Notes under the pieces: model-generated
Database searches by the model: none
The model's input: only the letters and a program-made list of their open reading frames with translations
Told to the model about the DNA's origin: nothing
Translations under genes and position numbers: made by a program
Shown: in pieces, positions 780 to 35,898 of the stretch
How the letters are laid out: the number at the start of each line of letters is the position of its first letter
How positions within the stretch are numbered: position 1 is the first letter of the stretch
NCBI GenBank assembly: GCA_048213135.1
Contig: PS015595.1
Span: 1 to 36,027, forward strand
Direction of reading: 5' to 3'
Source: Reclinomonas americana ATCC 50394
Lineage: Eukaryota
DNA: 36,027 nt

Positions 780-1477
780 TATATTTCCCNNNNNNNNNNN
801 NNNNNNNNNNNNNNNNNNNNNNNNNNNNNNNNNNNNNNNNNNNNNNNNNNNNNNNNNNNNNNNNNNNNNNNNNNNNNNNNNNNNNNNNNNNNNNNNNNNN
901 NNNNNNNNNNNNNNNNNNNNNNNNNNNNNNNNNNNNNNNNNNNNNNNNNNNNNNNNNNNNNNNNNNNNNNNNNNNNNNNNNNNNNNNNNNNNNNNNNNNN
1001 NNNNNNNNNNNNNNNNNNNNNNNNNNNNNNNNNNNNNNNNNNNNNNNNNNNNNNNNNNNNNNNNNNNNNNNNNNNNNNNNNNNNNNNNNNNNNNNNNNNN
1101 NNNNNNNNNNNNNNNNNNNNNNNNNNNNNNNNNNNNNNNNNNNNNNNNNNNNNNNNNNNNNNNNNNNNNNNNNNNNNNNNNNNNNNNNNNNNNNNNNNNN
1201 NNNNNNNNNNNNNNNNNNNNNNNNNNNNNNNNNNNNNNNNNNNNNNNNNNNNNNNNNNNNNNNNNNNNNNNNNNNNNNNNNNNNNNNNNNNNNNNNNNNN
1301 NNNNNNNNNNNNNNNNNNNNNNNNNNNNNNNNNNNNNNNNNNNNNNNNNNNNNNNNNNNNNNNNNNNNNNNNNNNNNNNNNNNNNNNNNNNNNNNNNNNN
1401 NNNNNNNNNNNNNNNNNNNNNNNNNNNNNNNNNNNNNNNNNNNNNNNNNNNNNNNNNNNNNNNNNNNNNNNNNNNNN

Positions 1478-3700
1478 CTCGGTCTCCGCACTGCTGCTGG
1501 CCCTCGCCTCTGGCGTGCTCACCTACATGCTGCCGCTGCCACCCATCGATCGCGGATTCGGGCCATTCGATGTTGCGCGCTCACCGATCGTCGAAGGTGC
1601 TCTTCTTCTTCTTCATTGTTGTCTCACTCACCCCGCATCACACAGACCGGCTTCCACGAGGCGACCATCACCGACGCAAACGGCCACTCGCACGTTGTCC
1701 GCGTGTACTACCCGAGCGATTATGAGGACGAGCACCGCGTTCTCCTGGCGCGCTATCCGACACCGTACTTCACGCATGGAGTGCGGACTGCGGTGCGTGG
1801 CTACACAGCAGCTCAAGGGGCGGTGGTCCATGCCCTCTTCCCTTCCCCTTCTCCCTTTCCCCCTTGTCCCCCTTTTCCTTTCTCATCCCTTTCCCTTCCA
1901 CCCCCTTCAGCGCGCTCTGGCTTCCTTCGCCAAGCTCCCCGCCTTCGTGTTCGAACACCTGCGACTGCTCGACCTGCCATCTCTTCGCGGCTCTCCCATG
2001 GTAGAGTTTGGTCGCGGCGTGCGACCCGCCCTGCCTGTCGTCCTCTTCTCGCACGGCCTCGGCGGCAATCGCGACATGTGCGTCTCGTCAACCGTCAATC
2101 TCCATCATCATCATCATCATCGTCACCCTAATCCTCCTTCTCCTAGTTACGCCTCTGCGGTGCTGAATCTCGCCTCGCACGGCTTCATTGTCATTGTGCT
2201 GGAACACAATGATGGATCCGCGTCGCTGACCGTTCAGCTGGACGGAACGCACACTCCATACCGGCCACTCACTGCCGAGGAGGCGGCCGATAAGGTTGTG
2301 TGCAAAAAAGGACCGAAAAACTGTGGATGCTGACGCTGATGGTGCCTCGCACAGACACTGGAAGCCGCCGTACGACGCGGTCAGCTGCTGCAGCGCGTGG
2401 CCGAGGTGGAGTCGACCCTGGACTGCGTTCACGAGTGGACCGCAGGGCGGATGGGCCGTGCCAAAGCTGACGTGACCGACGAAGTGTGGCTGGCCATGTT
2501 CACGGGGCGTCTCAACACGAATCGCGTGGGCGTTGCGTGGCGCACCTGAGTGACTGGAAGGGTGCATACATTGATAGACGTCTGCGCAGATTTTCGGCCA
2601 CAGCTTTGGCGCCTCGACGGCGTTCTTGGCGGCCGCCAAGGACGAGCGCATTCATTGCAGTGTGATTATGGTGAGCATGTGCACTTGGTGACTCTCTGTC
2701 TTCTCTGTTTCCTCATTTCGCCTTGTGCAACACAGGATATCTGGTATCTTCCGTTGGTGAGTCTGAGTCTGCCGGCTTGCACCATTCGTTCTCCCTCACC
2801 CTTCCAACTCACCGTGATGTGCAGCTCGACCCCGCCTCGCCTGACACGATGCCGGTACCGCCAAAGGTTTGCACGAAGCTTCCCTCCTCTCTCTCTCTCA
2901 TGCATACAGAAGCACACATTCGTACTCGTCTACTCTTGCCCGCAAGCGAAGACACCTTCGCTCTCTTCTCCCTCCTTTCCCTCCCTCTCCTCTCCTCTCC
3001 TCTCCTCTCCTCTCCTCTCCTTCCCTCTCCCTCCCTCTCACCCATCCCTCTCCTTCTCCTCTTGCAGACACCGATGCTGCTGATGCAAAGTGAAGCATGG
3101 CTCCGATGGAAGATCAACCACGAATTCTCCGAGCGAGTCGCACAGATGGCGCCTCGTGCTTCGTTCTTGGTGTGTGTGTGATGTTTGTATGTTGTTGTCC
3201 TTTTCTGCTATCGTGCTCCTCACTCGCTGCCTGCAGACTATTGCCGAAACCGGCCACCAGGTATTGACACATCTCTGTCTCCCTCCTCTCCTCGTCCGTC
3301 GTTCCACTCACCTTTGCTGTGTTGCAGAACTTTTCCGATTTCCCGCTCTTTGGTAATCTCTTTCACCTCTCTCTCTTCTTTCTTGCCTCCCACCCCGCAT
3401 CTCACCCTTGCCGATCACCCCCGAATAGGCGAAACGATCCAGCGACGCATGCGCCTGGCTGGCAACATTTCCGCGCGGCGTGCGCTGGAAATCGCCAACG
3501 ACTTTACGTGCAGCTTCTTCCGCTGGTGCCTGCTCAACGACGCCAGCAACTGCGTGCTGCTGCCGAATCCGCCGACCGATCCACAAATCTTGTGGCACTC
3601 ACACAATCTGCGTGTCGAGGTGCCTGGCGGTGAGGGAGCGGCGGCGGAAGCAACAGCAGCCGCATCTCCATCGTCCGAGTCAGAAAATCCTCCACGATAG
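1478..3700 (+). CDS. PAF-acetylhydrolase / Lp-PLA2-like alpha/beta hydrolase (5' end in gap; 11 visible introns)
   Basis: Inferred introns: 1572-1645, 1793-1910, 2078-2146, 2295-2354, 2532-2589, 2671-2735, 2757-2824, 2867-3067, 3170-3236, 3261-3327, 3353-3428. The spliced product is open and contains VRVYYP, PVVLFSHGLGGNRDIY, LASHGFIVIVLEHNDGSA, nucleophile IFGHSFGA, MDIW (Asp) and TGHQNFSDFP (His). These are characteristic PAF-AH family motifs. Stop TAG at 3698-3700. There is an N-terminal hydrophobic segment (SALLLALASGVLTYMLP). Confidence 0.9.
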
Positions 3701-3736
3701 AAACCACTCAATGCAAAACATGTGTTGTCTACAATG

Positions 3737-20252
<16,516 letters not shown>

Positions 20253-21420: not shown

Positions 21421-22872
21421 TCACGGTAACATGGTTCCCTTCGACGAGTCTAGTGACTCGGAATAACTTCGTAAGAACATGGCGCAGTACGAGGCCCCCA
21501 CCTGCGCAAATCACAAGACTCGGTGTCAGGGCCAGAGAAGCGACAGACAATGGAAGAGAGAGAGAGCGCAACTTGGATGAACGACACCACAAAGAAGAGC
21601 ACCAGGGCCCAGATGAGGACCGAGGTTGTGCGATCGCACAGCTCCTTGGGTGGGGCGCGGCAGCCGGTGCCCTGGAGCGAGGTGAGGAAACTGGAAAGAA
21701 GAATGGAGCAGGAGAGAAGGGAACAGCACCTGCAGATTGTCCCACGTGCATGTGTTGGATGCGGCGCACGCCAGGACGTCGCAGCGGCGGAAACTGCAAG
21801 TGGGGGAAAGGCAGTTAGTCGGGGCAGCATTCAANNNNNNNNNNNNNNNNNNNNNNNNNNNNNNNNNNNNNNNNNNNNNNNNNNNNNNNNNNNNNNNNNN
21901 NNNNNNNNNNNNNNNNNNNNNNNNNNNNNNNNNNNNNNNNNNNNNNNNNNNNNNNNNNNNNNNNNNNNNNNNNNNNNNNNNNNNNNNNNNNNNNTATTTG
22001 AATAAATGCTCCCACAGTGATGGACCCCATGGTGGGTGCCGTGTACTTCGGCAAGCTGGATACTCTCGCTGCACACTCGCTCTCTCACGCACACGCACTC
22101 GCTCTCTCCAATATTCCTTGTGCGTGTGTGCATCTCTCACGTTCTCTCTCTCTCTATTTCGAGAGGAGGTGGGAAGGGGAGAGACAAAGGTAACGGAAGA
22201 GCAGGGAAGGAAGCGTCGACACAGACAAGAATTACATGAATGTGAATTGCATTGAATAAAAGGAGACGAGCGCGCGAGCATACGCACATCGATCTCTGCC
22301 TCTCTTCTCACTCTCTCTCAATGTCTCTGCCTCTCTCTCCCTCTCTTCACCCCCACCACCCTCACCTCGTCTGGTTAATGTCACACCCGACCGTCATCAC
22401 TGCCAGCAGCACGAACAAGCTGCTGACAAAGATGCAGAGGGCGAGGATGCAGCACAAGAAATACTGCAAGAGCGAATCACATGAGGTGAGGAAAGAGAAC
22501 GATGAGAGCGTAGTCGCCGCCGCCGAACGCAACATACAGCAGCATGTTGGCGTGTTTTCTGTGGGCGCCGATAATGCCGAGGATGGTCGGTAGTATGATG
22601 GTGACGCCTGTACGCACGAGCACATGAGCTCACGACTCGAAGAGACAAAGCGGAACGAGAAGACGTACGACGCACCCGCAATGATACCGGCAATGAGACC
22701 AATCTTCTTGGCGCCGGCGAATATTACGAGTCCAATACCAAGGCCGCCGATGACCTGCGTGGAGGGGAAGAGAGGATGAGGGAAAGGGAGGGAAGAGAAA
22801 GGATGCCGTGGAGTCACGTTCACTGCATTCAGACAACGCATGACTCCAACGAGGTTTCCCAGAGGAGGGAAG

Positions 22873-22928
<56 letters not shown>

Positions 22929-24971
22929 TGNNNNNNNNNNNNNNNNNNNNNNNNNNNNNNNNNNNNNNNNNNNNNNNNNNNNNNNNNNNNNNNNNNNNNN
23001 NNNNNNNNNNNNNNNNNNNNNNNNNNNNNNNNNNNNNNNNNNNNNNNNNNNNNNNNNNNNNNNNNNNNNNNNNNNNNNNNNNNNNNNNNNNNNNNNNNNN
23101 NNNNNNNNNNNNNNNNNNNNNNNNNNNNNNNNNNNNNNNNNNNNNNNNNNNNNNNNNNNNNNNNNNNNNNNNNNNNNNNNNNNNNNNNNNNNNNNNNNNN
23201 NNNNNNNNNNNNNNNNNNNNNNNNNNNNNNNNNNNNNNNNNNNNNNNNNNNNNNNNNNNNNNNNNNNNNNNNNNNNNNNNNNNNNNNNNNNNNNNNNNNN
23301 NNNNNNNNNNNNNNNNNNNNNNNNNNNNNNNNNNNNNNNNNNNNNNNNNNNNNNNNNNNNNNNNNNNNNNNNNNNNNNNNNNNNNNNNNNNNNNNNNNNN
23401 NNNNNNNNNNNNNNNNNNNNNNNNNNNNNNNNNNNNNNNNNNNNNNNNNNNNNNNNNNNNNNNNNNNNNNNNNNNNNNNNNNNNNNNNNNNNNNNNNNNN
23501 NNNNNNNNNNNNNNNNNNNNNNNNNNNNNNNNNNNNNNNNNNNNNNNNNNNNNNNNNNNNNNNNNNNNNNNNNNNNNNNNNNNNNNNNNNNNNNNNNNNN
23601 NNNNNNNNNNNNNNNNNNNNNNNNNNNNNNNNNNNNNNNNNNNNNNNNNNNNNNNNNNNNNNNNNNNNNNNNNNNNNNNNNNNNNNNNNNNNNNNNNNNN
23701 NNNNNNNNNNNNNNNNNNNNNNNNNNNNNNNNNNNNNNNNNNNNNNNNNNNNNNNNNNNNNNNNNNNNNNNNNNNNNNNNNNNNNNNNNNNNNNNNNNNN
23801 NNNNNNNNNNNNNNNNNNNNNNNNNNNNNNNNNNNNNNNNNNNNNNNNNNNNNNNNNNNNNNNNNNNNNNNNNNNNNNNNNNNNNNGAAATGAAGAGAAC
23901 GAATCACCACAGAGACACCGAATCATCTCATAGAGAGTGACAAGTGAGACGAGAAAGAGACAAGTGAGGAGAGAAGAGCAACAGTAAGCGAGTCAAGATC
24001 GTGCACCTCTCACTCTCAAACCACTCAATCACAGTGCACCTCTCCTCCACTAGATGACGAGCGAATCATCAGAGCCGAGAAAGAGAGTGCGGGAGAAAAG
24101 TGAAAAGAGAGAGAAGAGTGACAAGTGAAAGAGAGAGAGAGAGAGACAAACAAGAGACAAGCAAGACTGCGCGCACCTCATACACGTCTCTAACTCTCCT
24201 CCACGAGCACCCGTTACGTACAGAGACAGACAAGAGAGACAAGAGAGAACGGAGACTGCACATATGCCAAGCCCCCTTCTCCATTCCTGCTTGTCTCACT
24301 CGTTACACATCATTCTCTCACAGACACTCTCATCGCAGAGGAAAGACAAGAGAGAGAAACAAGCAACCTCATACACGCTCTCACGTGTGATGATGAGTGA
24401 ATCACCCGTTACACATCATTCTCTCGAAGACACGGTCATCTCAGAGACAAGAGAGAAAGTGACATGTGAGATGCGTGTGTGAGAGAGAGACAAGCACGAC
24501 TGCGCGCACCTCAAGTCCCTGCACGCCCTCACTCCCAAACCATTCAGTCACAGCACACTTCTCCACAAGTGAGTGAATCACCGTTACACATAGTCGCTCA
24601 CTCAACTCGTCTCAGAGACAGACAAGAGAGAGAGAGAGAGAGAGACAGAGAAGAGTGCCCTTCTCCACTCCTGCTTCTCTCACTCGTTACACATCATTCT
24701 CTCACAGACACTCTTATCGCAGAGGAAAGACAAGAGAGAGAAACAAGAGACAAGCAACCTCACACACTGATGATAAGTGAATCACCGTTACACATTGTCG
24801 CTCACACACTCTCATCTCCCTCTCTCTCTCCCTCCCCTTCACTCTCTTCTCCTCTTCTTACGCAACAATCTGCACCGAGGCCATACAATAGAGAAACGCC
24901 TGATACTTCCACACACGACGACCGCGACCGGCCTTTGCGCCATTGTTCCCAAACGACGATCCTCTTCCCAT
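21421..24971 (-). CDS. Tetraspanin-like 4-TM protein with a Cys-rich large extracellular loop
   Basis: Exons: 24971-24867 (MGRGSSFGNNGAKAGRGRRVWKYQAFLYCMASVQI); 22754-22676 (VIGGLGIGLVIFAGAKKIGLIAGIIA); 22607-22534 (GVTIILPTILGIIGAHRKHANMLLY); about 22463-22366 (YFLCCILALCIFVSSLFVLLAVMTVGCD); a gap-interrupted loop (LPKYTAPTMG...FRRCDVLACAASNTCTWDNLQ GTGCRAPPKELCDR); TM4 VLIWALVLFFVVSFIQ|VGASYCAMFL; stop TGA at 21421-21423. The GxxGA-basic-LLxYF pattern across TM2-TM3 is typical of tetraspanins. No CCG motif is visible, but part of the loop lies in a gap. Confidence 0.7.
23930..24800. repeat. Degenerate nested repeats in intron 1 of the tetraspanin-like gene
   Basis: AGTGAATCAC(C)CGTTACACAT at about 24396, 24572 and 24776. 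A ~60-bp block CTCACTCGTTACACATCATTCTCTCACAGACACTCT...GAGGAAAGACAAGAG occurs at about 24295 and 24679. Confidence 0.8.
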
Positions 24972-26751
24972 CTTCTCTCTCACACACACTCACAGTGAGA
25001 CACACTCACTCACTCGCTCTCACTCGCACAACTCACACGTGCGCGCTCTGTCTGTGTGAGTGTGTGAGTTGATTTCGCGCGTTTTTTGGCTCGGATATCC
25101 GTTCGAGTGCTCGCGCGCGCGTTTTTTGTCGCATACCTCTCTTCGTGCGTGGGCTGTGCGCCTGATATGCACGCACAGACGACATGAGGCATCCGCGCTG
25201 CTCTCTGTCTGCCTCTCGAGCTCACACACACAAAAAATCGATATCGCCGTGCTGCTAATTCCTTTGCGCAGTTTGCATACGCACGAGATGGTTGGCGCTC
25301 CAGTGCGTGTGTGCGTGTGTGCGTGCGTGAGTTGCAGATTGATTCGCGCGCTTTTCTGCTCGGAAATATGTGCTGGTCGACATCGACACGGAAATCGAAC
25401 GCGCCTGTTTCTTTGCTTTTTCTAGCTCTTCCTGCGTTTTCCTTGTGCGTACGCGCATGTACGCCTCTTCTCACGCACGCTGCAGACATCAGGCACGGTG
25501 AAATGAGCGATTTTTGCCAAGTCGACTTGGAAATAAGTTCGAGAAAAAGCCGTTCACTTCACTTTCCTTGCTCTATCTTCGTTGGTCTTGTACGTGCACC
25601 GGTGTGTGCCTCTTTCCACGCTCCCTGCAGACGGTCAAATGAGCGATTTTTGCCAAATCGACGCGTACGTCGACATGAAAACCAAATTCGAACAAGCGCT
25701 GTCTCCTCACTTGCTGCGCTTTGCCTTCTTCTTCTTCTTCTTGCTCGCTTTGTCGCACACTCTCTAGTTTCTCACCTCCCCTCCACTTCTCAAGTATCAT
25801 GATTTTCCACCAAGTCGACCGTCGACATCGACCCCGCGCGAGCCACGCACTCACGCACGCTCAATCACAAACGCACACACTCTTCCCTCTTTCCCTCTTC
25901 CCTCACCACTCGCCTTTCACCACCACCACTGGCGAGAGAATCGCCACTCACGGTTTATCGTTTTCCAGCAATTGTCTCTGTCTGCCTCTCTGTCTCTCTG
26001 TCTCTGTCNNNNNNNNNNNNNNNNNNNNNNNNNNNNNNNNNNNNNNNNNNNNNNNNNNNNNNNNNNNNNNNNNNNNNNNNNNNNNNNNNNNNNNNNNNNN
26101 NNNNNNNNNNNNNNNNNNNNNNNNNNNNNNNNNNNNNNNNNNNNNNNNNNNNNNNNNNNNNNNNNNNNNNNNNNNNNNNNNNNNNNNNNNNNNNNNNNNN
26201 NNNNNNNNNNNNNNNNNNNNNNNNNNNNNNNNNNNNNNNNNNNNNNNNNNNNNNNNNNNNNNNNNNNNNNNNNNNNNNNNNNNNNNNNNNNNNNNNNNNN
26301 NNNNNNNNNNNNNNNNNNNNNNNNNNNNNNNNNNNNNNNNNNNNNNNNNNNNNNNNNNNNNNNNNNNNNNNNNNNNNNNNNNNNNNNNNNNNNNNNNNNN
26401 NNNNNNNNNNNNNNNNNNNNNNNNNNNNNNNNNNNNNNNNNNNNNNNNNNNNNNNNNNNNNNNNNNNNNNNNNNNNNNNNNNNNNNNNNNNNNNNNNNNN
26501 NNNNNNNNNNNNNNNNNNNNNNNNNNNNNNNNNNNNNNNNNNNNNNNNNNNNNNNNNNNNNNNNNNNNNNNNNNNNNNNNNNNNNNNNNNNNNNNNNNNN
26601 NNNNNNNNNNNNNNNNNNNNNNNNNNNNNNNNNNNNNNNNNNNNNNNNNNNNNNNNNNNNNNNNNNNNNNNNNNNNNNNNNNNNNNNNNNNNNNNNNNNN
26701 NNNNNNNNNNNNNNNNNNNNNNNNNNNNNNNNNNNNNNNNNNNNNNNNNNN

Positions 26752-26979
26752 GGCCAGCTGCGGGACAATGTCGCCGCCGCCGCTCGACGCCGCCGGCGAC
26801 TGCATGGGCGTGGTGGCGCGGGACGAGGAGGCCGACAGCGCAATGTTCTCCTGCACCAGTCGGTTGTGCGACGACGGTTTGAACGAGGTGGGCACGGGCG
26901 TGGTGAATTCGCCTTCGGTGGCGGTCGGGTCGCGACGTGGAGCCTTGCGCGGCTTGGTGGGCGCCGGTGCACAAAACAT
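26752..26979 (-). CDS. N-terminal coding fragment of an unknown Ser/Pro-rich protein (contig possibly misoriented)
   Basis: ATG at 26979 follows a UTR-like leader. It begins a GC-rich open frame MFCAPAPTKPRKAPRRDPTATEGEFTTPVPTSFKPSSHNRLVQENIA... that runs into a gap. Confidence 0.6.
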
Positions 26980-27507
26980 TCTCTTTTCTTTACACACACG
27001 GACTTCTTCTCCTCTCACACACTTCTTTCGAAAACGATAAGCGGGGAAAAACGGTTTGAAAAGGAGCGGAGGGGGACAGAGACGGGCATCAAGAGACANN
27101 NNNNNNNNNNNNNNNNNNNNNNNNNNNNNNNNNNNNNNNNNNNNNNNNNNNNNNNNNNNNNNNNNNNNNNNNNNNNNNNNNNNNNNNNNNNNNNNNNNNN
27201 NNNNNNNNNNNNNNNNNNNNNNNNNNNNNNNNNNNNNNNNNNNNNNNNNNNNNNNNNNNNNNNNNNNNNNNNNNNNNNNNNNNNNNNNNNNNNNNNNNNN
27301 NNNNNNNNNNNNNNNNNNNNNNNNNNNNNNNNNNNNNNNNNNNNNNNNNNNNNNNNNNNNNNNNNNNNNNNNNNNNNNNNNNNNNNNNNNNNNNNNNNNN
27401 NNNNNNNNNNNNNNNNNNNNNNNNNNNNNNNNNNNNNNNNNNNNNNNNNNNNNNNNNNNNNNNNNNNNNNNNNNNNNNNNNNNNNNNNNNNNNNNNNNNN
27501 NNNNNNA

Positions 27508-28411
27508 AGCAACTGCGCGAGCGCGCCTCGTCTGTGACGCGATCACGGCGGCAGTCGGCGCCTCTGGTCACCGAGTACACAACGAGTGTGCCGAGCACGT
27601 TTTCGCCGTCGTCGTTCCACGTCATGGCCAAGCAGAACATTGCGCGCGCGCAGGAGCTGAATCGTTTGACGGCATCGACGCCGGTGCCTGGAGCCACGGA
27701 CAATGGCGGCTCGAGTGGCGATGACGGGTCGAGCTCGCGACGCGGACACAAGGTGCACAGTACCGCCGGTAATGTGTGGGATCGCCTGCAGACCGACGCG
27801 AGTAAGTGGATCGACAGCAAGCGACGGGCGTCGACGGCGGCACTGACGCCGACGTCGTCGGCGCCGGGATCGCCACAAATGTCCGCCGGATCGCCCGAGG
27901 CAAGCCCTGGTGCGTCGTCACCGTCGGTCAGTTTCATGACAAGACGATTTACATTGTACTGTTTGTCTCGGTGTATTGATTGCTGACTTGCGTGTGTGAA
28001 CCAACAACAGCACACTCTGGGCAAACGAAGGCTGGTCTTCCGCGCCCCCCTTCTCGCCGTGGATCTGCATGCCGGGCGACGCTCATCCAGCCCTTCTATA
28101 CCCGCAATGGTTGTGTGCAGACCACGGCCCTACGGGAGAGCGATTTGATGGCCGACGGCGACGAGCGGGCGGCGGCGGTGGCGGCGGCGTTGCGGAGCAG
28201 CGAGGATGAGCATGAGCGGCGTTTCAATCCGTGGCATCAGTCGTCGGCGTTTGATGAGGTGTTGAAGCATCCGCGTGGCTCCTTCTCCAAGGAGCCGCGG
28301 TTTGGACGCGAGGCACCAATCGTGACACCGTGCCGCGCCCGCTCACCCTCTCCTGGCCCCCTCTCTCGTTTCTCTGCAATTGCAATGGCTGGCAGCAGCA
28401 GCATGGTGTGA
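27508..28411 (+). CDS. C-terminal part of an unknown low-complexity Ser/Pro/Arg-rich protein
   Basis: GC-rich open frame from the gap edge. Intron 27910-28010 (GTGCGT...CAACAG) joins ...SPEASP to AHSGQTKAGLPRPPSRR... Stop TGA at 28409-28411. Confidence 0.65.
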
Positions 28412-29111
28412 TGTGTACCACCACTTCATTTTTTCTCCTTTGTGTTGTGTTGTTTTTTTCTTTCGTTGTTGTATGCATAGTTGGTGGTGGTTGATTGATT
28501 GAGGAGAAGGGGGAGATAGAGAGCGAGAGAGCGAGGCAGCAAATCTGGTTGTCTATTGTTTGTTTGTTGTTAATTTGTTGGAAAGGGTGGCTGGTGGCTG
28601 CGAATGAGAAAAATACACGGCTCAGTTTTGATTGCGAAAAGTGGGGGGAGAAGGGGGCGAAGGAGGAGAAGGGGAAGGAGGAGAAGGAAAAGGAGAGGAG
28701 GAGAAGGAGAAGGATTCACCGGGAACAAGAGAAGGAGGGGTGCGGAGGCGAGGGAAAGGTGAGGAGAGCGCTGCGAGAGAAGAATGGGAAGAAGAGGAGA
28801 GAGGACAACGATGCAGAAAAATGGACCGCAACTCGAGAAGAGAAGCTGCTAGAACGTGCTGAGAATTGAGACAACACGTCGCTGCAACCATGGATACTTC
28901 GCCAACACAGCAGTGCCGATCGCGATCGATATCAGCGTCCAGCAAAAGGAGAATACTGCGCGCGCGCGCTGATCGTCTTCTTCTCATGGTGCGGAGGTGG
29001 AAGTCTTCACGAAAGAAGAAGAACAAAAGCGTGTGCATTCGATCGCCATTCACCCTTCACCCTTGAAGCTTCATCTTTTCTCCACTACCCCTTCTCCTCT
29101 CCCTCGATATC

Positions 29112-29364
29112 CAATCAAAGTGACAAACGTCGCAAATACCGTGTCCCGATCGCATCCAATCACCAATCAACAACCACGAGCGCACAAACTCGCATAAACA
29201 GCACACTGGCCACACTCTCCACCTCTCTTCCTCTCCCCTTCGAAACAATCAAAGTGACAAACGTCGCAGATACCGTGTCCCGATCGTATCCAATCACCAC
29301 GAGCTCGCAATCAAGAACTGCATGTCACGAGCGCACAACCTCGCATAGACAGCACACTCGCCAC
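29112..29364 (+). promoter_or_regulatory. Direct duplication (~100-120 bp, two copies) rich in CCAAT/CAATC motifs upstream of the SPX-EXS gene
   Basis: CAATCAAAGTGACAAACGTCGCARATACCGTGTCCCGATCGYATCCAATCACCA occurs at 29112 and 29246, 110-360 bp before the ATG. The regulatory role is inferred from position only. Confidence 0.45.
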
Positions 29365-29368
29365 CATC

Positions 29369-29404
<36 letters not shown>

Positions 29405-29470
29405 GCGCACATTTCACTTCTTTGGCGGGAACAATCAAAACTCTCTCCTTTTGCAAGTACGTCGTAGACA

Positions 29471-32400
29471 ATGAAGTTTGGCAAGCACCTGGAGGAGCAC
29501 TCGGTGCCAGAGTGGGAGTCCATGTACCTCAACTACAAGGGACTGAAGAAGCTGCTGGCGGCGACCGCGAAACTCCTCAAACTACGCGAGTCGGAGCCGC
29601 TGTTGCAGGGCGATGAGTCGAAGCGCATTCAGGAGAAGATAAGGTGAGGAGATGGGGATGAGATGGGGAGGAGAATGGGAGGAGAANNNNNNNNNNNNNN
29701 NNNNNNNNNNNNNNNNNNNNNNNNNNNNNNNNNNNNNNNNNNNNNNNNNNNNNNNNNNNNNNNNNNNNNNNNNNNNNNNNNNNNNNNNNNNNNNNNNNNN
29801 NNNNNNNNNNNNNNNNNNNNNNNNNNNNNNNNNNNNNNNNNNNNNNNNNNNNNNNNNNNNNNNNNNNNNNNNNNNNNNNNNNNNNNNNNNNNNNNNNNNN
29901 NNNNNNNNNNNNNNNNNTGTGGGGGATGATGCGCAATCAATCGTCACTATCGATTCAGCTGATCGCACCTTCTCGTCATGCTTTCACTGTGTCAGTTGGC
30001 GCATCTCTCTCTCTCTTTCTCTCTGTGCCTCTCTATCTCTCGCTCTCGCGCTCTCTCACTCTGTGTATGCGTGTGTATTTCTGTTTCTGTGATCATTGTG
30101 CTTCTCCCTCGCGAAGTCATGTTCCTCTGTGCCTTCTTTCTGTGCATGATCGCACCTCTTGTCATGGTGTTCTCACGGTGTCAGTTTGCGCATCTCTCTC
30201 ACTGTGTGTATGTGTGTGCGTGTGTGTGTGTGCGTACGATTGTGCTGTTTCCTCGCGTGGTCGTGCCTGTTTGTTTCTTCTGAGAACATGATCGCACCTT
30301 CTTTTCATGCCTTCTCTCACTGTGTCAGTTTACGCATCTCTCTTGCACTGTGTTTGCGTGCCTACGATTCCCTGCATTGTCATGTTCCTCCGTTCCTTTC
30401 TCTTTGAGCGATCTGTGAATCATGATTGTTTCATGCTTTCTCTCAGGTTGCATGTCTCACTGGCGTGCCCTTTCTGCATGATCGCTCCTTGTCGCGCTCT
30501 TTCTCACTCGTTTGCGCATCTTCTGTGTGTACGACTGTGCATTCTCCTCGCGTTGTCATGTTCCTCTGCCTCCATCTTCTATGACAAAGAGCATGATCGC
30601 TCCTTGTCATGCTTTCTCTCACTGTGTCAGTTTGCGCACCTCTCTCTCTCTATCTTTGTATCTCACTGTGCGTGTGTGCCGTCTCTCTGCAGTTGGTGCA
30701 CGCAGAAGGCGTGATCGGTCCTTGTCGTGTTTCTCTCTCTCTCTCTCGCTGTCTTTGTATCTGTGACGATTGTGCTTATCTCCCTTCTCTCTCTCTGTAT
30801 TGCCTTCCTTGTCATGTACCTCTGTCTGTGTCTCTCCTTCATAATCCATGAGGCGAGAGTGAGCATCTGACTGCGACAATGGTCAAGGAGAGGAAGAAGA
30901 ACGGCCTGCACGAGTTGTCCATCCATTCCCCCCCCCTCCCTCACTCCCCTTTTCCCACACAGCCTCATTCGCGAGCGCTTCAACTTCCCGGTGCTGCCCG
31001 ACCACGTCGACGAGAGCGCGGTGCTCGGCCGCGAGGCCTCCATCGGACTCTTCCTTGGCGTGTTCGACAGCGAGATCGAAAAAGTCAACAACTTCTTCTC
31101 CGACAAGTGGTCGCTCGCCGAGCAGCGATGGCAAGACCTGAAGGACGACGCGTCGGAGCTGCTGCGGCTGGACAGCGGCAGCAAGTCGTACCAGTCGGCG
31201 GCGCGCAAGCTGGAGATCAACTTTCAGGAGCAGTACCAGTTGTTGTATCATTTGCAGGTGAGTGGGACGAGAGAAAGGGAGAAGGGCAAGACGCACCGAA
31301 GTGAGAAGACTGTGAGCGTGTGAGTGGCATGCTGTCTTGATGTCGCTTGGCAGACGAGGTGTGGAGAGGAGAGAGCAAAGCGAGAAAGTGAGCGAGTATC
31401 GATTAGTTGTCGCGCCAAGAGCTGGAGTGATGGTATAATAGTGTGAGCGAGCAACATGTCGTCTTGATGTTCCGACAGCAGCAGGTGATTTTGTGCGAGT
31501 TAACGAGCGAAAGGCAATCGACGATTCTGTTCAGAGACAGAGTGGAGAGCAAGTGCAGTGCCATCTGCAGGTGATTTGAGGGAACTTGTGCGCGAGTTGG
31601 TGGACGAGAGTCAATCAGCGGTTCCTTACAGGGATGGAGTTAGTGGATGAGATGCCGTCTTACAGTCCCGAGTTTCTGTGTCACCTGCAAGTGGTTTGAG
31701 GGCATCTGTGGGTGAGATAGCGAGCGCCGTATAATCAGAAGTTGCAAACAGACAAAGTGAGCGAGTGACATATCGATTTGCTGTTTCGAGAGCAGCAGCA
31801 AATAATATGAGGGCAATTGCGGGTGAGCTTGTGAGCAGAAGCTGTGTTGCAGTGAGAAGAATAGTATTTGAGCGTGCATCTCACTTGTCTTTCCCTTTCC
31901 CTCCCCTCCACAGAACTACTGCATTCTCAACTACACCGCCGGCTTCAAGATCCTCAAAAAGATGCGCAAGGCCTCGCGCTTCGAAACCACTGCCGAGTTG
32001 GCACGCCTCAAATCGGAGCCGTTTTATCGCGGTATGGACGACGCCGAGCAGATGCGCGAGGAGTTGGAACAGCTGTACACGACCGCTTTCAAGGGCAACA
32101 AACGCGCCGAGGCCATGAAGGAGCTGCGCACGCCGACGGCGGAGCCGCCGCAGGAGACCAACGCCTTTCACGCCGGCCTCTTCACCGGCGCCTTTGTCAT
32201 CCAGCTCGTGGTCATTGTGTACGTCTTTGTCAACGACACCTCCCTGCCGCTGCTCAATCGGGTGGATTTCGCGGCCGATTTTGCCATTTTCCGTGGCCTA
32301 TCACTGTTGGTGGTGGCCGGGTGGATGTGGGCCGCCAACGTCACAGTGTGGCATCGGTGCAAGATCAACCACGTCTTTATTTTCGACTTTGATGTGCGCT

Positions 32401-34643
32401 CGCGCATGTCGCGGCAGGATATTCTTCTCGTCGCCGCCGCGTACTCCTTCTTCCTGTCGGTCATGTTCCTGCTCTTCCTGACCACCATCACCAACACCAT
32501 GACGATTGCCGGCCTGCCGCACCAGGTGTACACGTACGCCGCGCTGACCACCACGGTGGCTGTGCTGTTTGGTCCACTGCCGCTCTTCTTCCACAAGAGT
32601 CGGTTGTACATGCTGCGCACACTGGCGCGCATCGTGATGGCACCGTTCTTTGTCGTCTTGTTCCAGGACCTCTTCCTCGGCGATCAGCTGACCAGCATGT
32701 CGCCTCTGTTCATCGATTTGGTGTCGGGGGTGGCGTCGTGGGCGTCGGGCGAGTCGGCGTTCAGTTCGCGCTTCCGCAAGTACACCGCCGTCACGTTTTA
32801 CATGCTGCCGAATGTGTTTCGCTGTCTCCAGTGCTTCCGACGGTACCGCGATTCGGATCATCAGCGGGTGCATTTGTGGTGAGTGAGGGGGAAAGAGAGG
32901 GGAGGGGAGGAAGAAGGGGGCAAGGGAGAGCGAGGAGATGGAAGATGGAGGAGGGAGGACAAGGGATAGCGAGGAAGGACGGTGGGAATAGGGGAGCGAG
33001 GAAGTAAGTGAATAGACTGCGCGACGAGGGGAGAGTATGGTGCGTCAGAGGGGGCTTCGTGAGGAAATAGGGGAGCAGAGAAAGCTCAGGATTGAGGCGG
33101 AAGTGGAACGTCTTTCAGTGTGTGAACAGTGTGCTTTCGTCCTCCATCGTGAAGTCCGAGCGACTGCGTATCAGTCAGAGTGAATGGAGAGGGAGAGAGA
33201 GAGAACACTTGAATTTATCGGGCACTCCATGTGTCTTTCTCCGACATCTGCGCCATCGCTGACTTCGATTCCTTGCCCCTTTCGCGCAGGAACGCCGCCA
33301 AGTACTGCTCCTCCTTCCCCTCCATCATCCTCGCTGCGCTCCACTCGAATAACATTGCCAAGTTGCGTTTCATGCCCCTTTATGGAATTCCTTGAGCCGC
33401 GAGAACACACCGTCCCCCCCCCCCCCCCACCACACACACACACACNNNNNNNNNNNNNNNNNNNNNNNNNNNNNNNNNNNNNNNNNNNNNNNNNNNNNNN
33501 NNNNNNNNNNNNNNNNNNNNNNNNNNNNNNNNNNNNNNNNNNNNNNNNNNNNNNNNNNNNNNNNNNNNNNNNNNNNNNNNNNNNNNNNNNNNNNNNNNNN
33601 NNNNNNNNNNNNNNNNNNNNNNNNNNNNNNNNNNNNNNNNNNNNNNNNNNNNNNNNNNNNNNNNNNNNNNNNNNNNNNNNNNNNNNNNNNNNNNNNNNNN
33701 NNNNNNNNNNNNNNNNNNNNNNNNNNNNNNNNNNNNNNNNNNNNNNNNNNNNNNNNNNNNNNNNNNNNNNNNNNNNNNNNNNNNNNNNNNNNNNNNNNNN
33801 NNNNNNNNNNNNNNNNNNNNNNNNNNNNNNNNNNNNNNNNNNNNNNNNNNNNNNNNNNNNNNNNNNNNNNNNNNNNNNNNNNNNNNNNNNNNNNNNNNNN
33901 NNNNNNNNNNNNNNCCCCACCCCCCCCCCCCACCCCCCCCACCCACACACACACACACGCCTTTATCACCTTGTTCCCTCGCCTCACCACTCACCCTTTT
34001 CCGCAGGGAGATCACCTGGCCGGCCTGGCTGGTGTTCTCCGCGCTCTCCGCCGTCTTTAAACTATACTGGGACTTCATCAAGGACTGGAGCATCCTCAAC
34101 TTTTCGCAGCGGCGCAACTTTGCGCTGCGCAAAGTGATCAAGTACCCGGCGTGGACCTACTACGTGGCCATCCCGTTCAACATCATTCTGCGCTTCACGT
34201 GGCTCATCCAGATGTTTGTGATGATCGAGAGCGACATTTTCCAGCACGGTCTCGAGTTGCTGTTTGCGGTGCTGGAGGTGCTGCGTCGCTTCGTGTGGAA
34301 CTTTTTCCGCCTGGAGAACGAGCACGTGAACAACTGCGATCAGTTCCGCGCCGTCAAGCTCACGCCGCTGCCGTACTTTGCGTCGGAGAAGGCGGCGGCG
34401 CTGTCGCCGGCCGCCGCCTCCACCGCACGCTACACCATGGGCGTTGTCGCGCCGCCGTCGCCCCCACCGCCACCGTCGCAAGTGCCGCCATCGCCGGGGG
34501 TGAATCTGCTGACGCCGTCGGCGGCCATGCAGTGGCGGCAGCCGTTTTCCGATTCCACTGCGTCCGCGCAGCTGCGCAGTGCGAGGGAGGTGGCCATGGA
34601 GATGGATTTGCCGTTTGTGTCGAGGTTTGCGGAGACGGAGTGA
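29471..34643 (+). CDS. XPR1: SPX-EXS domain phosphate exporter (XPR1/SYG1/PHO1 family), 713 aa, 5 exons
   Basis: Exons 29471-29643, 30963-31257, 31914-32878, 33290-33361 and 34007-34643 splice in frame (2142 nt). SPX motifs: MKFGKHL...PEWESMYLNYKGLKK, EIEKVNNFF, LNYTAGFKILKK. EXS motifs: KINHVFIF, DLFLGDQLTS, RCLQCFRRYRD, HLWNAAKY, YWDFIKDW, NIILRFTW, LEVLRRFVWNFFRLENEH. Confidence 0.95.
29950..30830. repeat. Degenerate repeat array in intron 1 of the SPX-EXS gene
   Basis: Units of about GATCGCWCCTT...CACTGTGTCAGTTTGCGCATCTCTCT start at about 29961, 30148, 30290, 30480, 30595 and 30713. Confidence 0.8.
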
Positions 34644-35238
34644 AGGGAAAAGGAGGAGGAGGGAGGAAGACAAACAATCGCGACATGCTCTCTTGTGACA
34701 CCTGCTCTACTTTTGCGTGCTTCCCGGATCTCGACCGGCTTCGCCTTGGCGCTGAAATAGACAATGCTCGCGCTTCTGATATCCGTACCCCTTCGTCTGA
34801 NNNNNNNNNNNNNNNNNNNNNNNNNNNNNNNNNNNNNNNNNNNNNNNNNNNNNNNNNNNNNNNNNNNNNNNNNNNNNNNNNNNNNNNNNNNNNNNNNNNN
34901 NNNNNNNNNNNNNNNNNNNNNNNNNNNNNNNNNNNNNNNNNNNNNNNNNNNNNNNNNNNNNNNNNNNNNNNNNNNNNNNNNNNNNNNNNNNNNNNNNNNN
35001 NNNNNNNNNNNNNNNNNNNNNNNNNNNNNNNNNNNNNNNNNNNNNNNNNNNNNNNNNNNNNNNNNNNNNNNNNNNNNNNNNNNNNNNNNNNNNNNNNNNN
35101 NNNNNNNNNNNNNNNNNNNNNNNNNNNNNNNNNNNNNNNNNNNNNNNNNNNNNNNNNNNNNNNNNNNNNNNNNNNNNNNNNNNNNNNNNNNNNNNNNNNN
35201 NNNNNNNNNNNNNNNNNNNNNNNNNNNNNNNNGCAGAG

Positions 35239-35867
35239 ATGCGGTTGCCTCTTCTGCTCCTTTTTCTCACTCTGGTCGCCACCGTCGCCTTTACTTGCGC
35301 CCGCGCCGCCACTGCCCGCGAAGACCTTGAGTCGTTAGAGGAGCTGGTGAACAGCCTTTCGCCGCAGTTTGCCAGCGGTGAGGACGACGAGGAGATCAAT
35401 GATTTCAGTGCGAGCGAATTGTTGGAGTTGCTTGAGGCAGCCCGGCATGAAGACTTGGTGCATGCCATGAGTCAGGTGGAGATCCCAGCATTGCCAGTGT
35501 ACGGCAACTGGTGAGCACACACGACGGAGTGTTCTTCGTACGCGTATTGTACTCATCCGTGCGCATGCGCAGGTGTGGTCCTCATGTTGCGTGCACGACA
35601 CTGCTGATATTCATGCCCAGTTGTTGTTGTTGTTGTTGTTGTTGTTGACGTTGTTGTGCTTCGATGTGAGTAGTATGGCAACGGCACTCCCATTGACCGT
35701 GCCGACGGCTTCTGCAAGGTGACTTCTTTGAGTATGTGTGTGTGTCTTGAAGCTCTCTCGCTCATGGCCATGGCGCTACTGTGACTGGTGTAGGTTCATG
35801 ACAGGTGCTATGGTGAGGCTATGCGACGAAACAATGGCGTGTGGGCCATGGATCCGTGTTGCGACAA
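35239..35867 (+). CDS. Secreted Ca2+-dependent phospholipase A2 (His-Asp type), 3' end beyond the window
   Basis: Signal peptide MRLPLLLLFLTLVATVAFTCARA, then an acidic segment. Exons 35239-35510, 35573-35585, 35674-35718 and 35794-35867 give YGNWCGPHYGNGTPIDRADGFCKVHDRCYGEAMRRNNGVWAMDPCCD. This contains the Ca-binding loop YGxWCG and the catalytic CxxHDxCY motif. Confidence 0.88.
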
Positions 35868-35898
35868 GTTGAGCGTCGAGTATTCCACTCTCTCTCTC

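What the first reader, a model, noticed from the sequence alone, without database searches (positions are those of the whole stretch)
1572..35874. Abundant class of +1-shifted 5' splice sites (GTTGCG[T/C]), anti-correlated with the exonic -1 G
Seen: about 18 of about 92 hand-inferred donors look like an ordinary donor of this genome with an extra T at +3, which moves the conserved G from +5 to +6. GTTGCG x10 (+ strand 1572, 2532, 33362, 35586; - strand 7589, 8676, 12491, 21572, 22533, 24866). GTTGAG x2 (-5873, +35868). GTTGTG x2 (+2295, -10166). GTTTCG x3 (-11582, -13195, -13873). GTTACG x1 (-11777). Position +7 is T in 14 of 18 and C in the rest. Sixteen of 18 have no G at exon -1, whereas roughly 80-85% of the other donors do. 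Several are fixed by conserved motifs (RVG|IFGHSFG, CGPH|YG, the EXS exon 4/5 join). The class occurs in five of the six genes. Known: rare mammalian atypical donors of the GUUAAGU type are read by U1 in a shifted or bulged register. Inference: this lineage uses such a register for about one intron in five, which suggests a modified U1/U6 snRNA, a second U1, or altered donor-recognition proteins.
Basis: partly seen in the sequence, partly recalled or inferred. Interest (0 to 1): 0.8.

Follow-up and report, generated by a model that had tools for sequence, protein, structure and literature searches.

The report
Splice donors shifted by one base
About one intron in five in this stretch of a eukaryotic nuclear genome seems to begin with GTTGCGT, the organism's usual intron-start signal moved along by one base, which would be an unusually heavy use of a rare way of recognising introns, although no RNA data were available to prove it.

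Summary
All 18 motifs are at the stated coordinates. The counts hold: exon -1 is not G in 16 of 18, and +7 is T in 14 and C in 4.

No transcript data, whole genome or snRNA gene could be reached, so donor use rests on gene modelling and protein homology.

In my part-automatic, part-hand-curated set of 78 introns, 15 are GTTNNG. Of these:
- 13 have no nearby in-frame GT alternative.
- 2 (GTTGTG) are ambiguous with a GT three bases downstream.
- Three further listed sites (8676, 24866, 35868) could not be verified.

Main results:
- -1G occurs in 2 of 15 GTTNNG donors against 52 of 63 others.
- +3T goes with +6G and against +5G (p about 1e-7).
- Letting the ordinary donor matrix be read one base downstream raises the gene-model score by 48.5 bits. 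Five control offsets give 0 to 11.3 bits.
- Pfam coordinates fix RVG|IFGHSFG. An EXS profile needs the small exon that ends at 33362.

Best reading: these are real GT-AG introns bound by U1 in the +1 shifted register, a mechanism known from rare human sites. Their abundance would be new. A modified or second U1 is neither needed nor testable here.

The parts
1572..1645 (+). Intron of gene A (PAF acetylhydrolase-like), donor gat|GTTGCGC, 74 nt
   Evidence: It joins ...LPPIDRGFGPFD to TGFHEATITD.... It was kept by the canonical-matrix gene model. The only nearby in-frame alternatives are a GC at +3 and GTCGAA at +18. It is not fixed by the profile, because exon 1 gave no Pfam hit.
2295..2354 (+). 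Intron of gene A, donor aag|GTTGTGT, 60 nt (ambiguous)
   Evidence: It was picked by the GT-only model. An in-frame GT at 2298 (GTGTGC) is preferred by the two-register model. The acceptor at 2354 is supported because exon 2355-2531 matches HMM 170-223, whereas the shorter 2385-2531 gives no hit.
2532..2589 (+). Intron of gene A, donor ggc|GTTGCGT, 58 nt
   Evidence: Residue 58 of exon 2355-2531 matches PF03403 position 223, so its last residue falls on 224. Exon 2590-2670 starts at position 225. There is therefore no gap across RVG|IFGHSFG. The in-frame alternative at 2526 would delete two profile positions.
33362..34006 (+). Intron of gene E (SPX-EXS), donor caa|GTTGCGT; 645 nt including an N gap
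   Evidence: With a profile of 37 EXS homologues, the claimed splice gives one domain of 452 bits. Dropping the small exon gives 410 bits and truncating it gives 418 bits, each as two split domains. It is the only frame-compatible GT before the in-frame stop; GC sites at +3 and +12 remain possible. It was picked by the GT-only model.
35586..35673 (+). Intron of gene F, donor cat|GTTGCGT, 88 nt, following a 13-nt micro-exon (35573-35585)
   Evidence: The frame of the long first exon (phase 2 at 35511) closes with YGNGTPIDRADGFCK / VHDRCY only if the 13-nt exon is included. The phospholipase-A2-like motif is recalled, not tested: searches found nothing. The automatic models did not find this structure.
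35868..35874 (+). Candidate donor caa|GTTGAGC of gene F (unverifiable)
   Evidence: The downstream exon lies beyond the window. The frame stays open into a CA repeat. A second GTTGCG lies 10 nt upstream at 35858.
5808..5873 (-). Intron of gene B, donor gta|GTTGAGT, 66 nt
   Evidence: An in-frame TAG overlaps the site, so the exon must end here or earlier. The only near alternative is GTAGTT at -3, with canonical score -4.2. It has 8.5 U1 pairs in the +1 register against 2.5 canonical. It was kept by the matrix-based models.
6867..7589 (-). Intron of gene B, donor cga|GTTGCGT, 722 nt, full of purine-rich repeats (plausible)
   Evidence: This is a hand model. The signal-peptide exon (phase 1), a 26-nt exon and the next exon close the frame. 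Alternatively the gene may start at the ATG at 6773.
8609..8676 (-). Candidate intron of gene C, donor aca|GTTGCGC, 68 nt (unverified)
   Evidence: There is a strong 3' module, CTGAC about 20 nt upstream of the CAG. The flanking exons are uncertain and the models chose other paths.
10107..10166 (-). Intron of gene C, donor caa|GTTGTGT, 60 nt (ambiguous)
   Evidence: It was picked by the GT-only and the two-register models. An in-frame GT at 10163 (GTGTTT) cannot be excluded.
11509..11582 (-). Intron of gene C, donor aca|GTTTCGT, 74 nt
   Evidence: It was picked by the GT-only model. The junction ...LVSST|VRWNTAN... keeps the S-T-x-x-x-N-x-A spacing seen in other repeat units of the same protein. 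It has 7 U1 pairs in the +1 register against 2 canonical.
11724..11777 (-). Intron of gene C, donor cag|GTTACGT, 54 nt
   Evidence: It was picked by all models. It has -1G and more pairs in the canonical register (7) than in +1 (5.5), so it may be an ordinary-register donor.
12421..12491 (-). Intron of gene C, donor gca|GTTGCGT, 71 nt
   Evidence: It was picked by the GT-only model. It joins GGGAMFVASS to (N)LLLNSTFFSHNS. No in-frame GT lies nearer than 27 nt.
13134..13195 (-). Intron of gene C, donor gct|GTTTCGT, 62 nt
   Evidence: It was picked by the GT-only model. It joins ...GGGGALLG to (F)YSVSVYQSTFTNS. The nearest in-frame GT is at -18, with canonical score -2.9.
13811..13873 (-). Intron of gene C, donor gga|GTTTCGT, 63 nt
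   Evidence: The two-register model picks it. The other models pick GTTTGG at 13855, which gives a 45-nt intron. 13873 restores a GG|GAIL repeat motif.
21502..21572 (-). Last intron of gene D, donor caa|GTTGCGC, 71 nt (plausible)
   Evidence: This is a hand model. It has a CT-rich body, a CTGAC about 22 nt upstream of the CAG, and a short last exon that ends at a stop. Read-through is also open. In-frame GTs lie at -15 and -30, with canonical scores 0.1 and 2.3.
22464..22533 (-). Intron of gene D, donor tat|GTTGCGT, 70 nt
   Evidence: This is a hand model. Two hydrophobic, possibly membrane-spanning exons are joined in frame. Read-through meets a stop. It is the only frame-compatible GT with this acceptor; a GC lies at +3. 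The upstream intron, 22675-22608, has an ordinary GTGCGT donor.
24767..24866 (-). Candidate intron, donor att|GTTGCGT (unverifiable)
   Evidence: It lies in repetitive, low-confidence sequence upstream of an N gap. I could not establish the coding status of the flanks.

Best explanation
These are ordinary short GT-AG (U2-type) introns. Their 5' signal, consensus A|GUUGCGU, is this organism's usual signal AG|GUGCGU displaced one base into the intron.

Proposed mechanism:
1. U1 snRNP binds with its standard 5' end in the +1 shifted register. Intron +1G faces U1 C9, +2U is the single mismatch, +3U faces A7, +6G faces C4, +7U faces A3, and exon -1 faces U10.
2. After hand-over, cleavage is still set at the GU by U5, U6 and Prp8.

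What is shown: the motif, its covariation, and its exclusive fit at offset +1.

The class makes up about 19% of donors in this window (15 of 78 curated).
For: - All 18 motifs are present.
- In the curated 78 introns, GTTNNG accounts for 15. +3T goes with +6G (15 of 17, against 10 of 61 for other +3 bases; p 7e-8) and against +5G (3 of 17 against 53 of 61; p 1.5e-7). -1G is 2 of 15 against 52 of 63 (p 8e-7). -1A is 7 of 15 against 3 of 63 (p 2e-4).
- Mean counted U1 pairs: the class has 5.67 at +1 and 4.27 canonical. Ordinary donors have 6.88 canonical and 3.71 at +1.
- With the ordinary-donor matrix applied at offset +1, 15 of 15 class members lie above the 95th percentile of 1628 background sense GT sites. 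At offsets -2, -1, +2 and +3 the figures are 0, 1, 0 and 2 of 15.
- Using only the columns that do not define the class, the 15 donors beat 70 non-donor sense GTTNNG sites (mean 1.97 against -1.51; Mann-Whitney p 1.5e-6).
- Adding a +1 register to the gene model gains 48.5 bits, and 10 introns use it. Offsets -3, -2, -1, +2 and +3 gain 0.4, 5.7, 0.0, 0.9 and 11.3 bits. The antisense strands gain 4.1 bits.
- A model that knows only GT picks 8 of the 17 listed sites it could see.
- Sense-strand GTTGCG[TC] is found 14 times against 6.0 expected, and 2 times antisense.
- Pfam continuity fixes the 2532 junction. The EXS profile supports the exon that ends at 33362.
- The class has the same intron length (median 68 against 70 nt), the same acceptors and the same branch motif as ordinary introns.
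- The shifted register is an established mechanism in human cells (passages of PMC4856993).
Against: - No RNA evidence: cleavage at these GTs is not shown.
- The curated set is partly circular. Five sites (7589, 13873, 21572, 22533, 35586) were placed by hand after reading the finding. The matrix-guided models favour -1G among ordinary donors.
- The unbiased GT-only model gives weaker statistics: 10 of 96 donors are GTTNNG against a 4.85% background (p 0.018), and +6G with +3T gives p 0.024.
- A model with the canonical matrix at full weight keeps only 2 of the 16 listed sites it could see, by taking other paths.
- For 3 of the 14 listed sites among the 15 GTTNNG donors scored (11777, 21572, 22533), the canonical register has as many or more U1 pairs. 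The fifteenth site scored there was 13855, not 13873.
- Exon -2 is mostly A (9 of 15), not the C a full shift would favour opposite U1 G11.
- The three GTTTCG sites place U at +4, where the shifted matrix expects G or A.
- The conserved G+6/U+7 would sit one base too far from the cleavage site for the canonical U6 pairing described in PMC11162779.
- This is one window of 36 kb, with 5544 N.
Confidence: 0.5

Rival explanations
1. The donors are real but are read differently. One option is a bulged-U register: +1G and +2U pair canonically and +3U is flipped out. Another is recognition mainly by U6, U5 or proteins, or by a variant U1 snRNA. In these readings the TGCGT block is what is recognised, and its distance from the GU is tolerated.
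For: Bulge and asymmetric-loop registers are proven in human cells and are commoner there than the shifted one (passages of PMC4856993). G+6/U+7 is as conserved in the class (15 of 15 and 13 of 15) as G+5/U+6 is in ordinary donors. These are also the U6-pairing positions, so a bulge at +3 would serve both U1 and U6. Three sites pair at least as well with U1 in the canonical register.
Against: A bulge register keeps exon -1 opposite U1 C9, so it predicts -1G as in ordinary donors. The observed figures are 2 of 15 G and 7 of 15 A. No snRNA gene is available to support a variant U1.
Confidence: 0.25
2. Many of the junctions are mis-inferred. The true donors are other sites: a GT three bases on in GTTGTG, a GC at +3, more distant GTs, skipped or unrecognised exons, or exons hidden in N gaps. 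On this view the class is an artefact of hand annotation that favours a look-alike motif.
For: No transcript evidence exists. Two sites have an in-frame GT at +3. Three sites are unverifiable. Codon-usage models were poor for genes B, D and F. A full-weight canonical matrix removes most of the class. Five sites rest on my hand models.
Against: A GT-only model with no donor information picks 8 listed sites. Apart from one pair (35511 to 35673) that is out of frame with gene F's first exon, none of the ranked in-frame alternatives shown (five per intron) reaches the ordinary donors' median score of 4.2; the best is 2.3, and they are often 15 to 75 nt away, which would delete protein-like sequence. 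Profile continuity supports the junctions at 2532 and 33362. The +1 offset is specific against five control offsets and the antisense strand. The heptamer is enriched on the sense strand only.
Confidence: 0.17
3. There is no distinct class. The donor consensus of this organism is simply loose (GTATTG, GTAATC and GTTTGC also occur), and GTTNNG sites are its tail.
For: Donors are diverse. GTT donors with +5G and -1G also occur: 2867 is in the curated set, and 4096 was seen only by eye and is not verified.
Against: The +3T/+6G/+5G/-1 covariation is strong (p about 1e-7). The independent-position expectation for +3T with +6G is about 5.4 of 78; this is my arithmetic from the counts (17/78 x 25/78 x 78). 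The observed number is 15. The free columns reproduce the ordinary consensus at offset +1.
Confidence: 0.05

Closest known systems
Human atypical 5' splice sites read by U1 in the +1 shifted register. Source: Roca and Krainer 2009, as cited and re-measured in Tan et al. 2016 (PMC4856993; passages read). The 2009 paper itself is not held.
   Same: A GU followed by an extra base, so that the block which normally pairs with U1 C4/A3 lies one position further on. More pairs with U1 at +1 than in the canonical register. Cleavage is still assumed to be at the GU.
   Different: In human cells these sites are rare. All proven noncanonical registers together are put at 1.5% of 201,541 human 5' splice sites. 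Here the class is about 19% of donors in one window. The motif here is GUUGCGU (+3U, then G/C at +4/+5); the test oligonucleotide in Tan et al. reads GUCAAGU. Nothing here has been tested at the bench.
Bulge and asymmetric-loop U1 registers. Sources: Roca et al. 2012 (reference only) and Tan et al. 2016 (PMC4856993; passages), plus the review PMC9311317 (passages).
   Same: One extra nucleotide at +2/+3 relative to the consensus could equally be drawn as a bulged U.
   Different: A bulge register keeps -1G paired. This class lacks -1G (2 of 15) and is rich in -1A (7 of 15).
Tandem donors three bases apart, and the non-canonical U6 register of STAT3 exon 21 (PMC11162779; passages).
   Same: The two GTTGTG sites (2295, 10166) are such GT-N-GT tandems. 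The paper shows that the U6 pairing can sit one base off its usual distance from the cleavage site.
   Different: The STAT3 case is one base closer (4 nt). This class would need one base further (6 nt), which that paper does not describe. 13 of the 15 sites are not tandem GTs.
The two major 5' splice-site classes, exon-side against intron-side pairing: LUC7 classes (PMC11842720) and U5/U6 classes (PMC11732430). I saw only the search listing and the start of each abstract.
   Same: An anticorrelation between exon -1G and intron-side consensus positions.
   Different: Those classes share one register and trade -1G against +5G. This class lacks both in the canonical register and regains them only at offset +1.

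Membership tests
U2-type GT-AG spliceosomal introns | GT at the 5' end, AG at the 3' end, and a branch-site-like motif shortly upstream of the AG | tested here: met
   All 15 curated class members start with GT. They end in CAG (13) or TAG (2). 12 of 15 have CTNAY in the last 50 nt, against 53 of 62 ordinary introns. Median length is 68 against 70 nt.
U2-type GT-AG spliceosomal introns | Removal from the mRNA at exactly these boundaries | not testable with these tools
   No RNA run could be listed and no genome is held.
Shifted-register (+1) 5' splice sites | More base pairs with the U1 5' end in the +1 register than in the canonical one | tested here: met
   Mean is 5.67 against 4.27 pairs for the class. 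Taken singly, 11 of the 14 listed sites scored there meet the criterion; 3 do not (11777, 21572, 22533). This organism's own U1 was not seen.
Shifted-register (+1) 5' splice sites | The organism's own donor consensus reappears one base downstream and at no other offset | tested here: met
   15 of 15 class members lie above the 95th percentile at +1, against 0 to 2 of 15 at four other offsets. The +1 offset gains 48.5 bits, against at most 11.3 for the controls.
Shifted-register (+1) 5' splice sites | Exon positions follow the shift: -1 faces U10 (favouring A) and -2 faces G11 (favouring C) | tested here: inconclusive
   -1A is 7 of 15 against 3 of 63, which meets the prediction. But -2 is A in 9 of 15 and C in only 3 of 15.
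Shifted-register (+1) 5' splice sites | Rescue by suppressor U1 mutations in the shifted register only | not testable with these tools
   This is a bench experiment.
U12-type introns | A donor of the type [AG]TATCCTT (motif recalled) | tested here: not met
   None of the 18 sites reads GTATCC.
GC-AG introns starting three bases downstream (GTT|GCG...) | A GC donor with otherwise strong consensus (criterion recalled) | tested here: not met
   The GC candidates at +3 score -1.5 to -4.2 on the ordinary matrix including a -3 penalty for GC, against an ordinary median of 4.2. For 33362 they cannot be excluded by the protein profile: 452.3 against 452.2 bits.

The most novel reading that the evidence does not exclude
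This lineage has a second major class of 5' splice sites, about one intron in five. In it both the U1 helix and the later U6 ACAGAGA pairing sit one base further from the cleavage site than in any described spliceosome. That would mean the ruler between the U6-paired G and the scissile bond is relaxed, or a U at +3 is routinely extruded. It would make a natural system in which the register choices of U1 and U6 can be separated.
Probability: 0.3. Interest if true: 0.85.

Novelty: new variant of a known kind. Interest (0 to 1): 0.6.

Why it matters
Shifted and bulged U1 registers are known as rare exceptions in human genes. All proven noncanonical registers together are estimated at 1.5% of human sites (PMC4856993).

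A genome in which roughly a fifth of donors use one such register would have three consequences:
- It would show that the register is an evolvable, genome-wide property and not only a tolerated accident.
- It would give hundreds to thousands of natural test cases for how the cleavage site is fixed after U1 leaves.
- It would matter in practice. Gene finders trained on a single donor matrix would mis-annotate about one intron in five here. My own canonical-matrix model did so, keeping 2 of the 16 listed sites it could see.

My searches found no paper describing such an abundant class. These covered open-access texts only.

Tried and rejected
- RNA evidence: no RNA holder was listed for window 8073-14739.
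- Whole genome: none is held.
- snRNA genes: an Rfam scan of the window gave 0 matches.
- Earlier notes of this scan: nothing by place, by words or by sequence.
- Homologues to test junctions:
  - A repeat-protein exon gave none among 8000 scored candidates.
  - A PAF-AH exon gave none; only 16 candidates shared words.
  - The EXS exon gave 1286 relatives at 24-37% identity only, so there are no close relatives for comparing intron positions.
- PDB search: PAF-AH exon 2 gave only a chance match. The gene F exon gave none.
- Pfam on gene F and gene B exons gave nothing useful.
- Six-frame Pfam scan of 150 open frames: mostly empty.
- Codon-usage gene models without signals or with a generic table were unreliable. 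They were replaced by models with acceptor and branch-site terms and gene-specific tables.
- Considered and rejected:
  - U12-type donors: the motif is absent.
  - Cleavage one base downstream (G|TTGCGT): this would need a non-AG 3' end, because the base after the AG is G at only 3 of 14 checked sites.
  - Transposon-derived intron families: an all-against-all blastn of 78 introns found only microsatellite matches.
  - A one-base sequencing artefact: reading frames and profiles close with the extra T in place.
Full report
**What the window is.**
- It is 36,027 bases with 12 runs of N totalling 5544 bases.
- It contains GC-rich exons and many short introns of 55-90 nt. These have CTGAC/CTCAC-like motifs shortly before a CAG, and microsatellite-rich spacers.
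- No whole genome is held. No RNA run could be listed. No Rfam family reaches threshold. Earlier notes of the scan hold nothing.
- Everything below therefore rests on the window itself, on protein families and on a set of distant EXS homologues.

**Genes.** The labels are mine.
- A, + strand, 1479-3700: a PAF acetylhydrolase-like hydrolase (PF03403).
- B, - strand, 7713-3740: a protein with long hydrophobic stretches and no family hit.
- C, - strand, about 19060-8100: a very large repeat protein with GGAI...F..N.A units. It has one weak Chlam_PMP hit and no relatives were found.
- D, - strand, about 22754-21421: a small hydrophobic protein. The sequence upstream of it (26008-23887) could not be interpreted.
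- E, + strand, 29471-34640: an SPX-EXS protein (PF03124). Its best relatives among 1.84 billion representatives are only 24-37% identical.
- F, + strand, from 35239: a secreted protein whose YGNWCGPHYGNG...FCKVHDRCY string recalls phospholipase A2. That is memory only; Pfam and PDB searches with the one usable exon found nothing.
- Strand assignment is backed by the gene-model score: 1660 bits on the sense strands against 176 on the antisense strands.

**The observation.**
Exon -1 is not G in 16.
- The bare hexamer is not enriched: 24 found against 21.4 expected.
- On the sense strand of the gene regions, GTTGCG[TC] occurs 14 times against 6.0 +/- 2.6 in 300 dinucleotide shuffles (1 of 300 reach 14), and only twice antisense.
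- The ordinary donor word GTGCGT behaves the same way: 32 against 11.8, with 6 antisense.

**Are they donors?** I wrote a dynamic-programming gene model with codon log-odds, a simple acceptor and branch-site term and an intron-length term.
- *GT-only model.* With no donor information beyond GT, and a codon table trained on gene C for that gene, it predicts 96 introns in seven regions. It picks 8 of the 17 listed sites that lay inside those regions: 2295, 2532, 10166, 11582, 11777, 12491, 13195 and 33362. Most of its other picks are plainly ordinary donors (GTGAGT, GTGCGT, GTACGT, GTAAGT). This shows that the model finds real introns without being told the consensus.
- *Moderate canonical matrix.* Trained on its own output, this model still keeps 9-10 listed sites and adds 1572 and 5873.
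- *Full-weight canonical matrix.* This removes most of them, keeping 2 of the 16 it could see, by skipping or reading through. The result therefore depends on the model.
- *Hand models.* Five more sites rest on my hand models of genes B, D, F and C (7589, 22533, 21572, 35586, 13873).
- *Not verified.* Three sites could not be verified. At 8676 the exons are uncertain, 24866 lies in repetitive sequence, and the next exon after 35868 lies beyond the window.

**Junctions fixed by homology.**
- In gene A, residues 3-58 of exon 2355-2531 match PF03403 positions 170-223. Exon 2590-2670 starts at position 225. RVG|IFGHSFG is therefore continuous. The in-frame alternative donor at 2526 would delete two profile positions, and the alternative acceptor at 2577 would insert four residues.
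- In gene E, I built a profile from 37 homologues. It aligns the claimed splice as one domain of 452 bits through HLWNAAKY...NNIAK|EITWPAW. Dropping or truncating the 72-nt exon costs 34-42 bits and splits the domain.
- Within that exon's frame, 33362 is the only GT before the stop that fits the acceptor. A GC at +3 scores the same, 452.3 bits.
- In gene C the junctions at 11582, 12491, 13195 and 13873 keep the spacing of the protein's own repeat motifs. This is supportive but loose.

**Alternatives at each site.**
- I enumerated the frame-preserving GT or GC donor and AG acceptor pairs within 75 nt for the 15 class members. One search lists the five best-ranked pairs per intron.
- Ordinary donors score a median of 4.2 on their own matrix (10th percentile -0.1).
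- One listed pair scores 4.5: 35511 to 35673, which would skip the 13-nt exon. It is out of frame with gene F's first exon, so I discount it.
- Apart from that, the best listed alternative scores 2.3, and most score below 1. Many would delete 15-75 nt of protein-like exon.
- The real ambiguities are the two GTTGTG sites, with a GT at +3 (scores 0.8 and -1.1), and site 21572.

**Statistics on the curated set.** The set has 78 introns, part model and part hand. It is not exhaustive: at least one ordinary intron of gene B, 4420-4334, was left out.
- 15 introns are GTTNNG.
- +3T goes with +6G: 15 of 17, against 10 of 61 for other +3 bases (p 7e-8).
- +3T goes against +5G: 3 of 17, against 53 of 61 (p 1.5e-7).
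- -1G is 2 of 15 against 52 of 63 (p 8e-7).
- -1A is 7 of 15 against 3 of 63 (p 2e-4).
- On the unbiased but noisy GT-only output the same trends are weaker. GTTNNG is 10 of 96 against a background of 88 of 1816 sense GT sites (p 0.018). +6G with +3T gives p 0.024, and -1G gives p 0.011.
- The curated figures are inflated to an unknown degree by selection, mine and the matrix's.

**The register test.**
- The ordinary-donor matrix (62 sites) was applied to the class at different offsets. At offset +1, 15 of 15 lie above the 95th percentile of 1628 background sense GT sites. At 0, -2, -1, +2 and +3 the counts are 0, 0, 1, 0 and 2 of 15.
- GTT and +6G define the class, so I repeated the test using only the other columns and 70 non-donor sense GTTNNG sites as background. 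The means are 1.97 against -1.51 (p 1.5e-6).
- The free columns show +4G in 11 of 15 against 24 of 70, +5C in 12 of 15 against 24 of 70, +7T in 13 of 15 against 24 of 70, and -1A in 8 of 15 against 11 of 70.
- I also let the gene model use the ordinary matrix at a second offset. Offset +1 gains 48.5 bits and 10 introns use it. Offsets -3, -2, -1, +2 and +3 gain 0.4, 5.7, 0.0, 0.9 and 11.3 bits. The antisense strands gain 4.1 bits.
- The class is thus the usual signal AG|GTGCGT read one base further on: A|GTTGCGT.

**Mechanism.**
- I counted pairs with the conserved U1 5' end.
- The class averages 5.67 pairs in the +1 register and 4.27 in the canonical one. Ordinary donors average 6.88 canonical and 3.71 at +1.
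- Taken singly, 11 of the 14 listed sites scored there prefer +1. Three do not: 11777, 21572 and 22533.
- The lack of -1G and the excess of -1A fit a shifted helix, in which -1 faces U10. They do not fit a bulged U, in which -1 still faces C9.
- The A-rich -2 position does not fit a full shift.
- G+6/U+7 are also the bases that would have to meet the U6 ACAGAGA box, one base further from the scissile bond than the fixed distance described in PMC11162779. Either +3U is extruded there, or that distance is flexible in this organism.
- None of this can be tested here. No modified or second U1 is needed to explain the data, and none can be sought without the genome.

**Other readings.**
- U12-type donors are excluded by sequence.
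- Cleavage one base downstream would need a non-AG 3' end.
- The introns of the class share nothing with each other beyond the signals and microsatellites. They have the same length, acceptors and branch motifs as the rest. They are therefore not a transposon-derived family.

**Literature.**
- Shifted, bulged and asymmetric-loop registers are established for human U1. All proven noncanonical registers together are put at 1.5% of 201,541 sites (passages of PMC4856993; review PMC9311317).
- My searches found no report of a lineage in which such a class is abundant. A cross-kingdom study of donor couplings does not mention registers (term search of PMC10599564).
- Only open-access texts were searched. 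The 2009 paper that defined the shifted register is not held, and no supplementary files were opened.

**Verdict.**
- The shifted-register reading is the best available. The snRNA speculation is unsupported.
- RNA-seq and a genome-wide donor table would settle it.

Noticed in passing
window 35573-35585 (+), 6219-6236 (-), 2736-2756 (+), 6841-6866 (-): There are very short internal exons of 13, 18, 21 and 26 nt. Each is needed to close the reading frame between well-supported neighbours, and each is flanked by good splice signals.
   Followed up: partly
window 2867 (+) and 4096 (-): Two donors read AG|GTTTGC. They have T at +3 but G at +5 and G at -1, so they are a GTT donor in the ordinary register and contrast with the class. 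The second would be a 63-nt in-frame, stop-free intron (4096-4034) in the last exon of gene B. It was seen by eye only.
   Followed up: no
window 15880, 20613, 18584, 17510, 8654 (-): Further sense-strand sites score as high as class members at offset +1 (GTTGAGTTT, GTTGCGTTT, GTTGCGCTC and others). They are not in any of my models. 15880 lies just before the N gap that splits gene C and could be a missed donor.
   Followed up: no
window about 400-790 (+): A tandem array of a 28-nt unit of the type GTTTGTTCCCACTCGCTCTGC(C/T)C runs into the first N gap.
   Followed up: no
window about 6900-7560 (-): Purine-rich imperfect tandem repeats (GAGTGGAGCGAGTGGGAAGCAAA-like) fill what I model as the 722-nt first intron of gene B. 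Codon-based models mistake them for exons.
   Followed up: partly
window 8100-19060 (-): A giant repeat protein has GGAI...F..N.A units, with one weak Chlam_PMP hit. It is split by about 45 introns, has a Cys-rich C-terminal part, and no relatives were found among 8000 scored candidates.
   Followed up: partly
window 24300-24766 (-) and 30119-30657 (+): Locally duplicated segments give near-identical open frames: ...SCFSLLSFLCD.SVCERMMCN occurs twice, and ...CQFAHLS... occurs twice. They are probably repeats in non-coding sequence.
   Followed up: no
window 31872-32879 (+): The EXS exon has much stronger third-position GC (0.82) than the other genes (about 0.5-0.7). For this reason a single codon table failed across the window.
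   Followed up: partly
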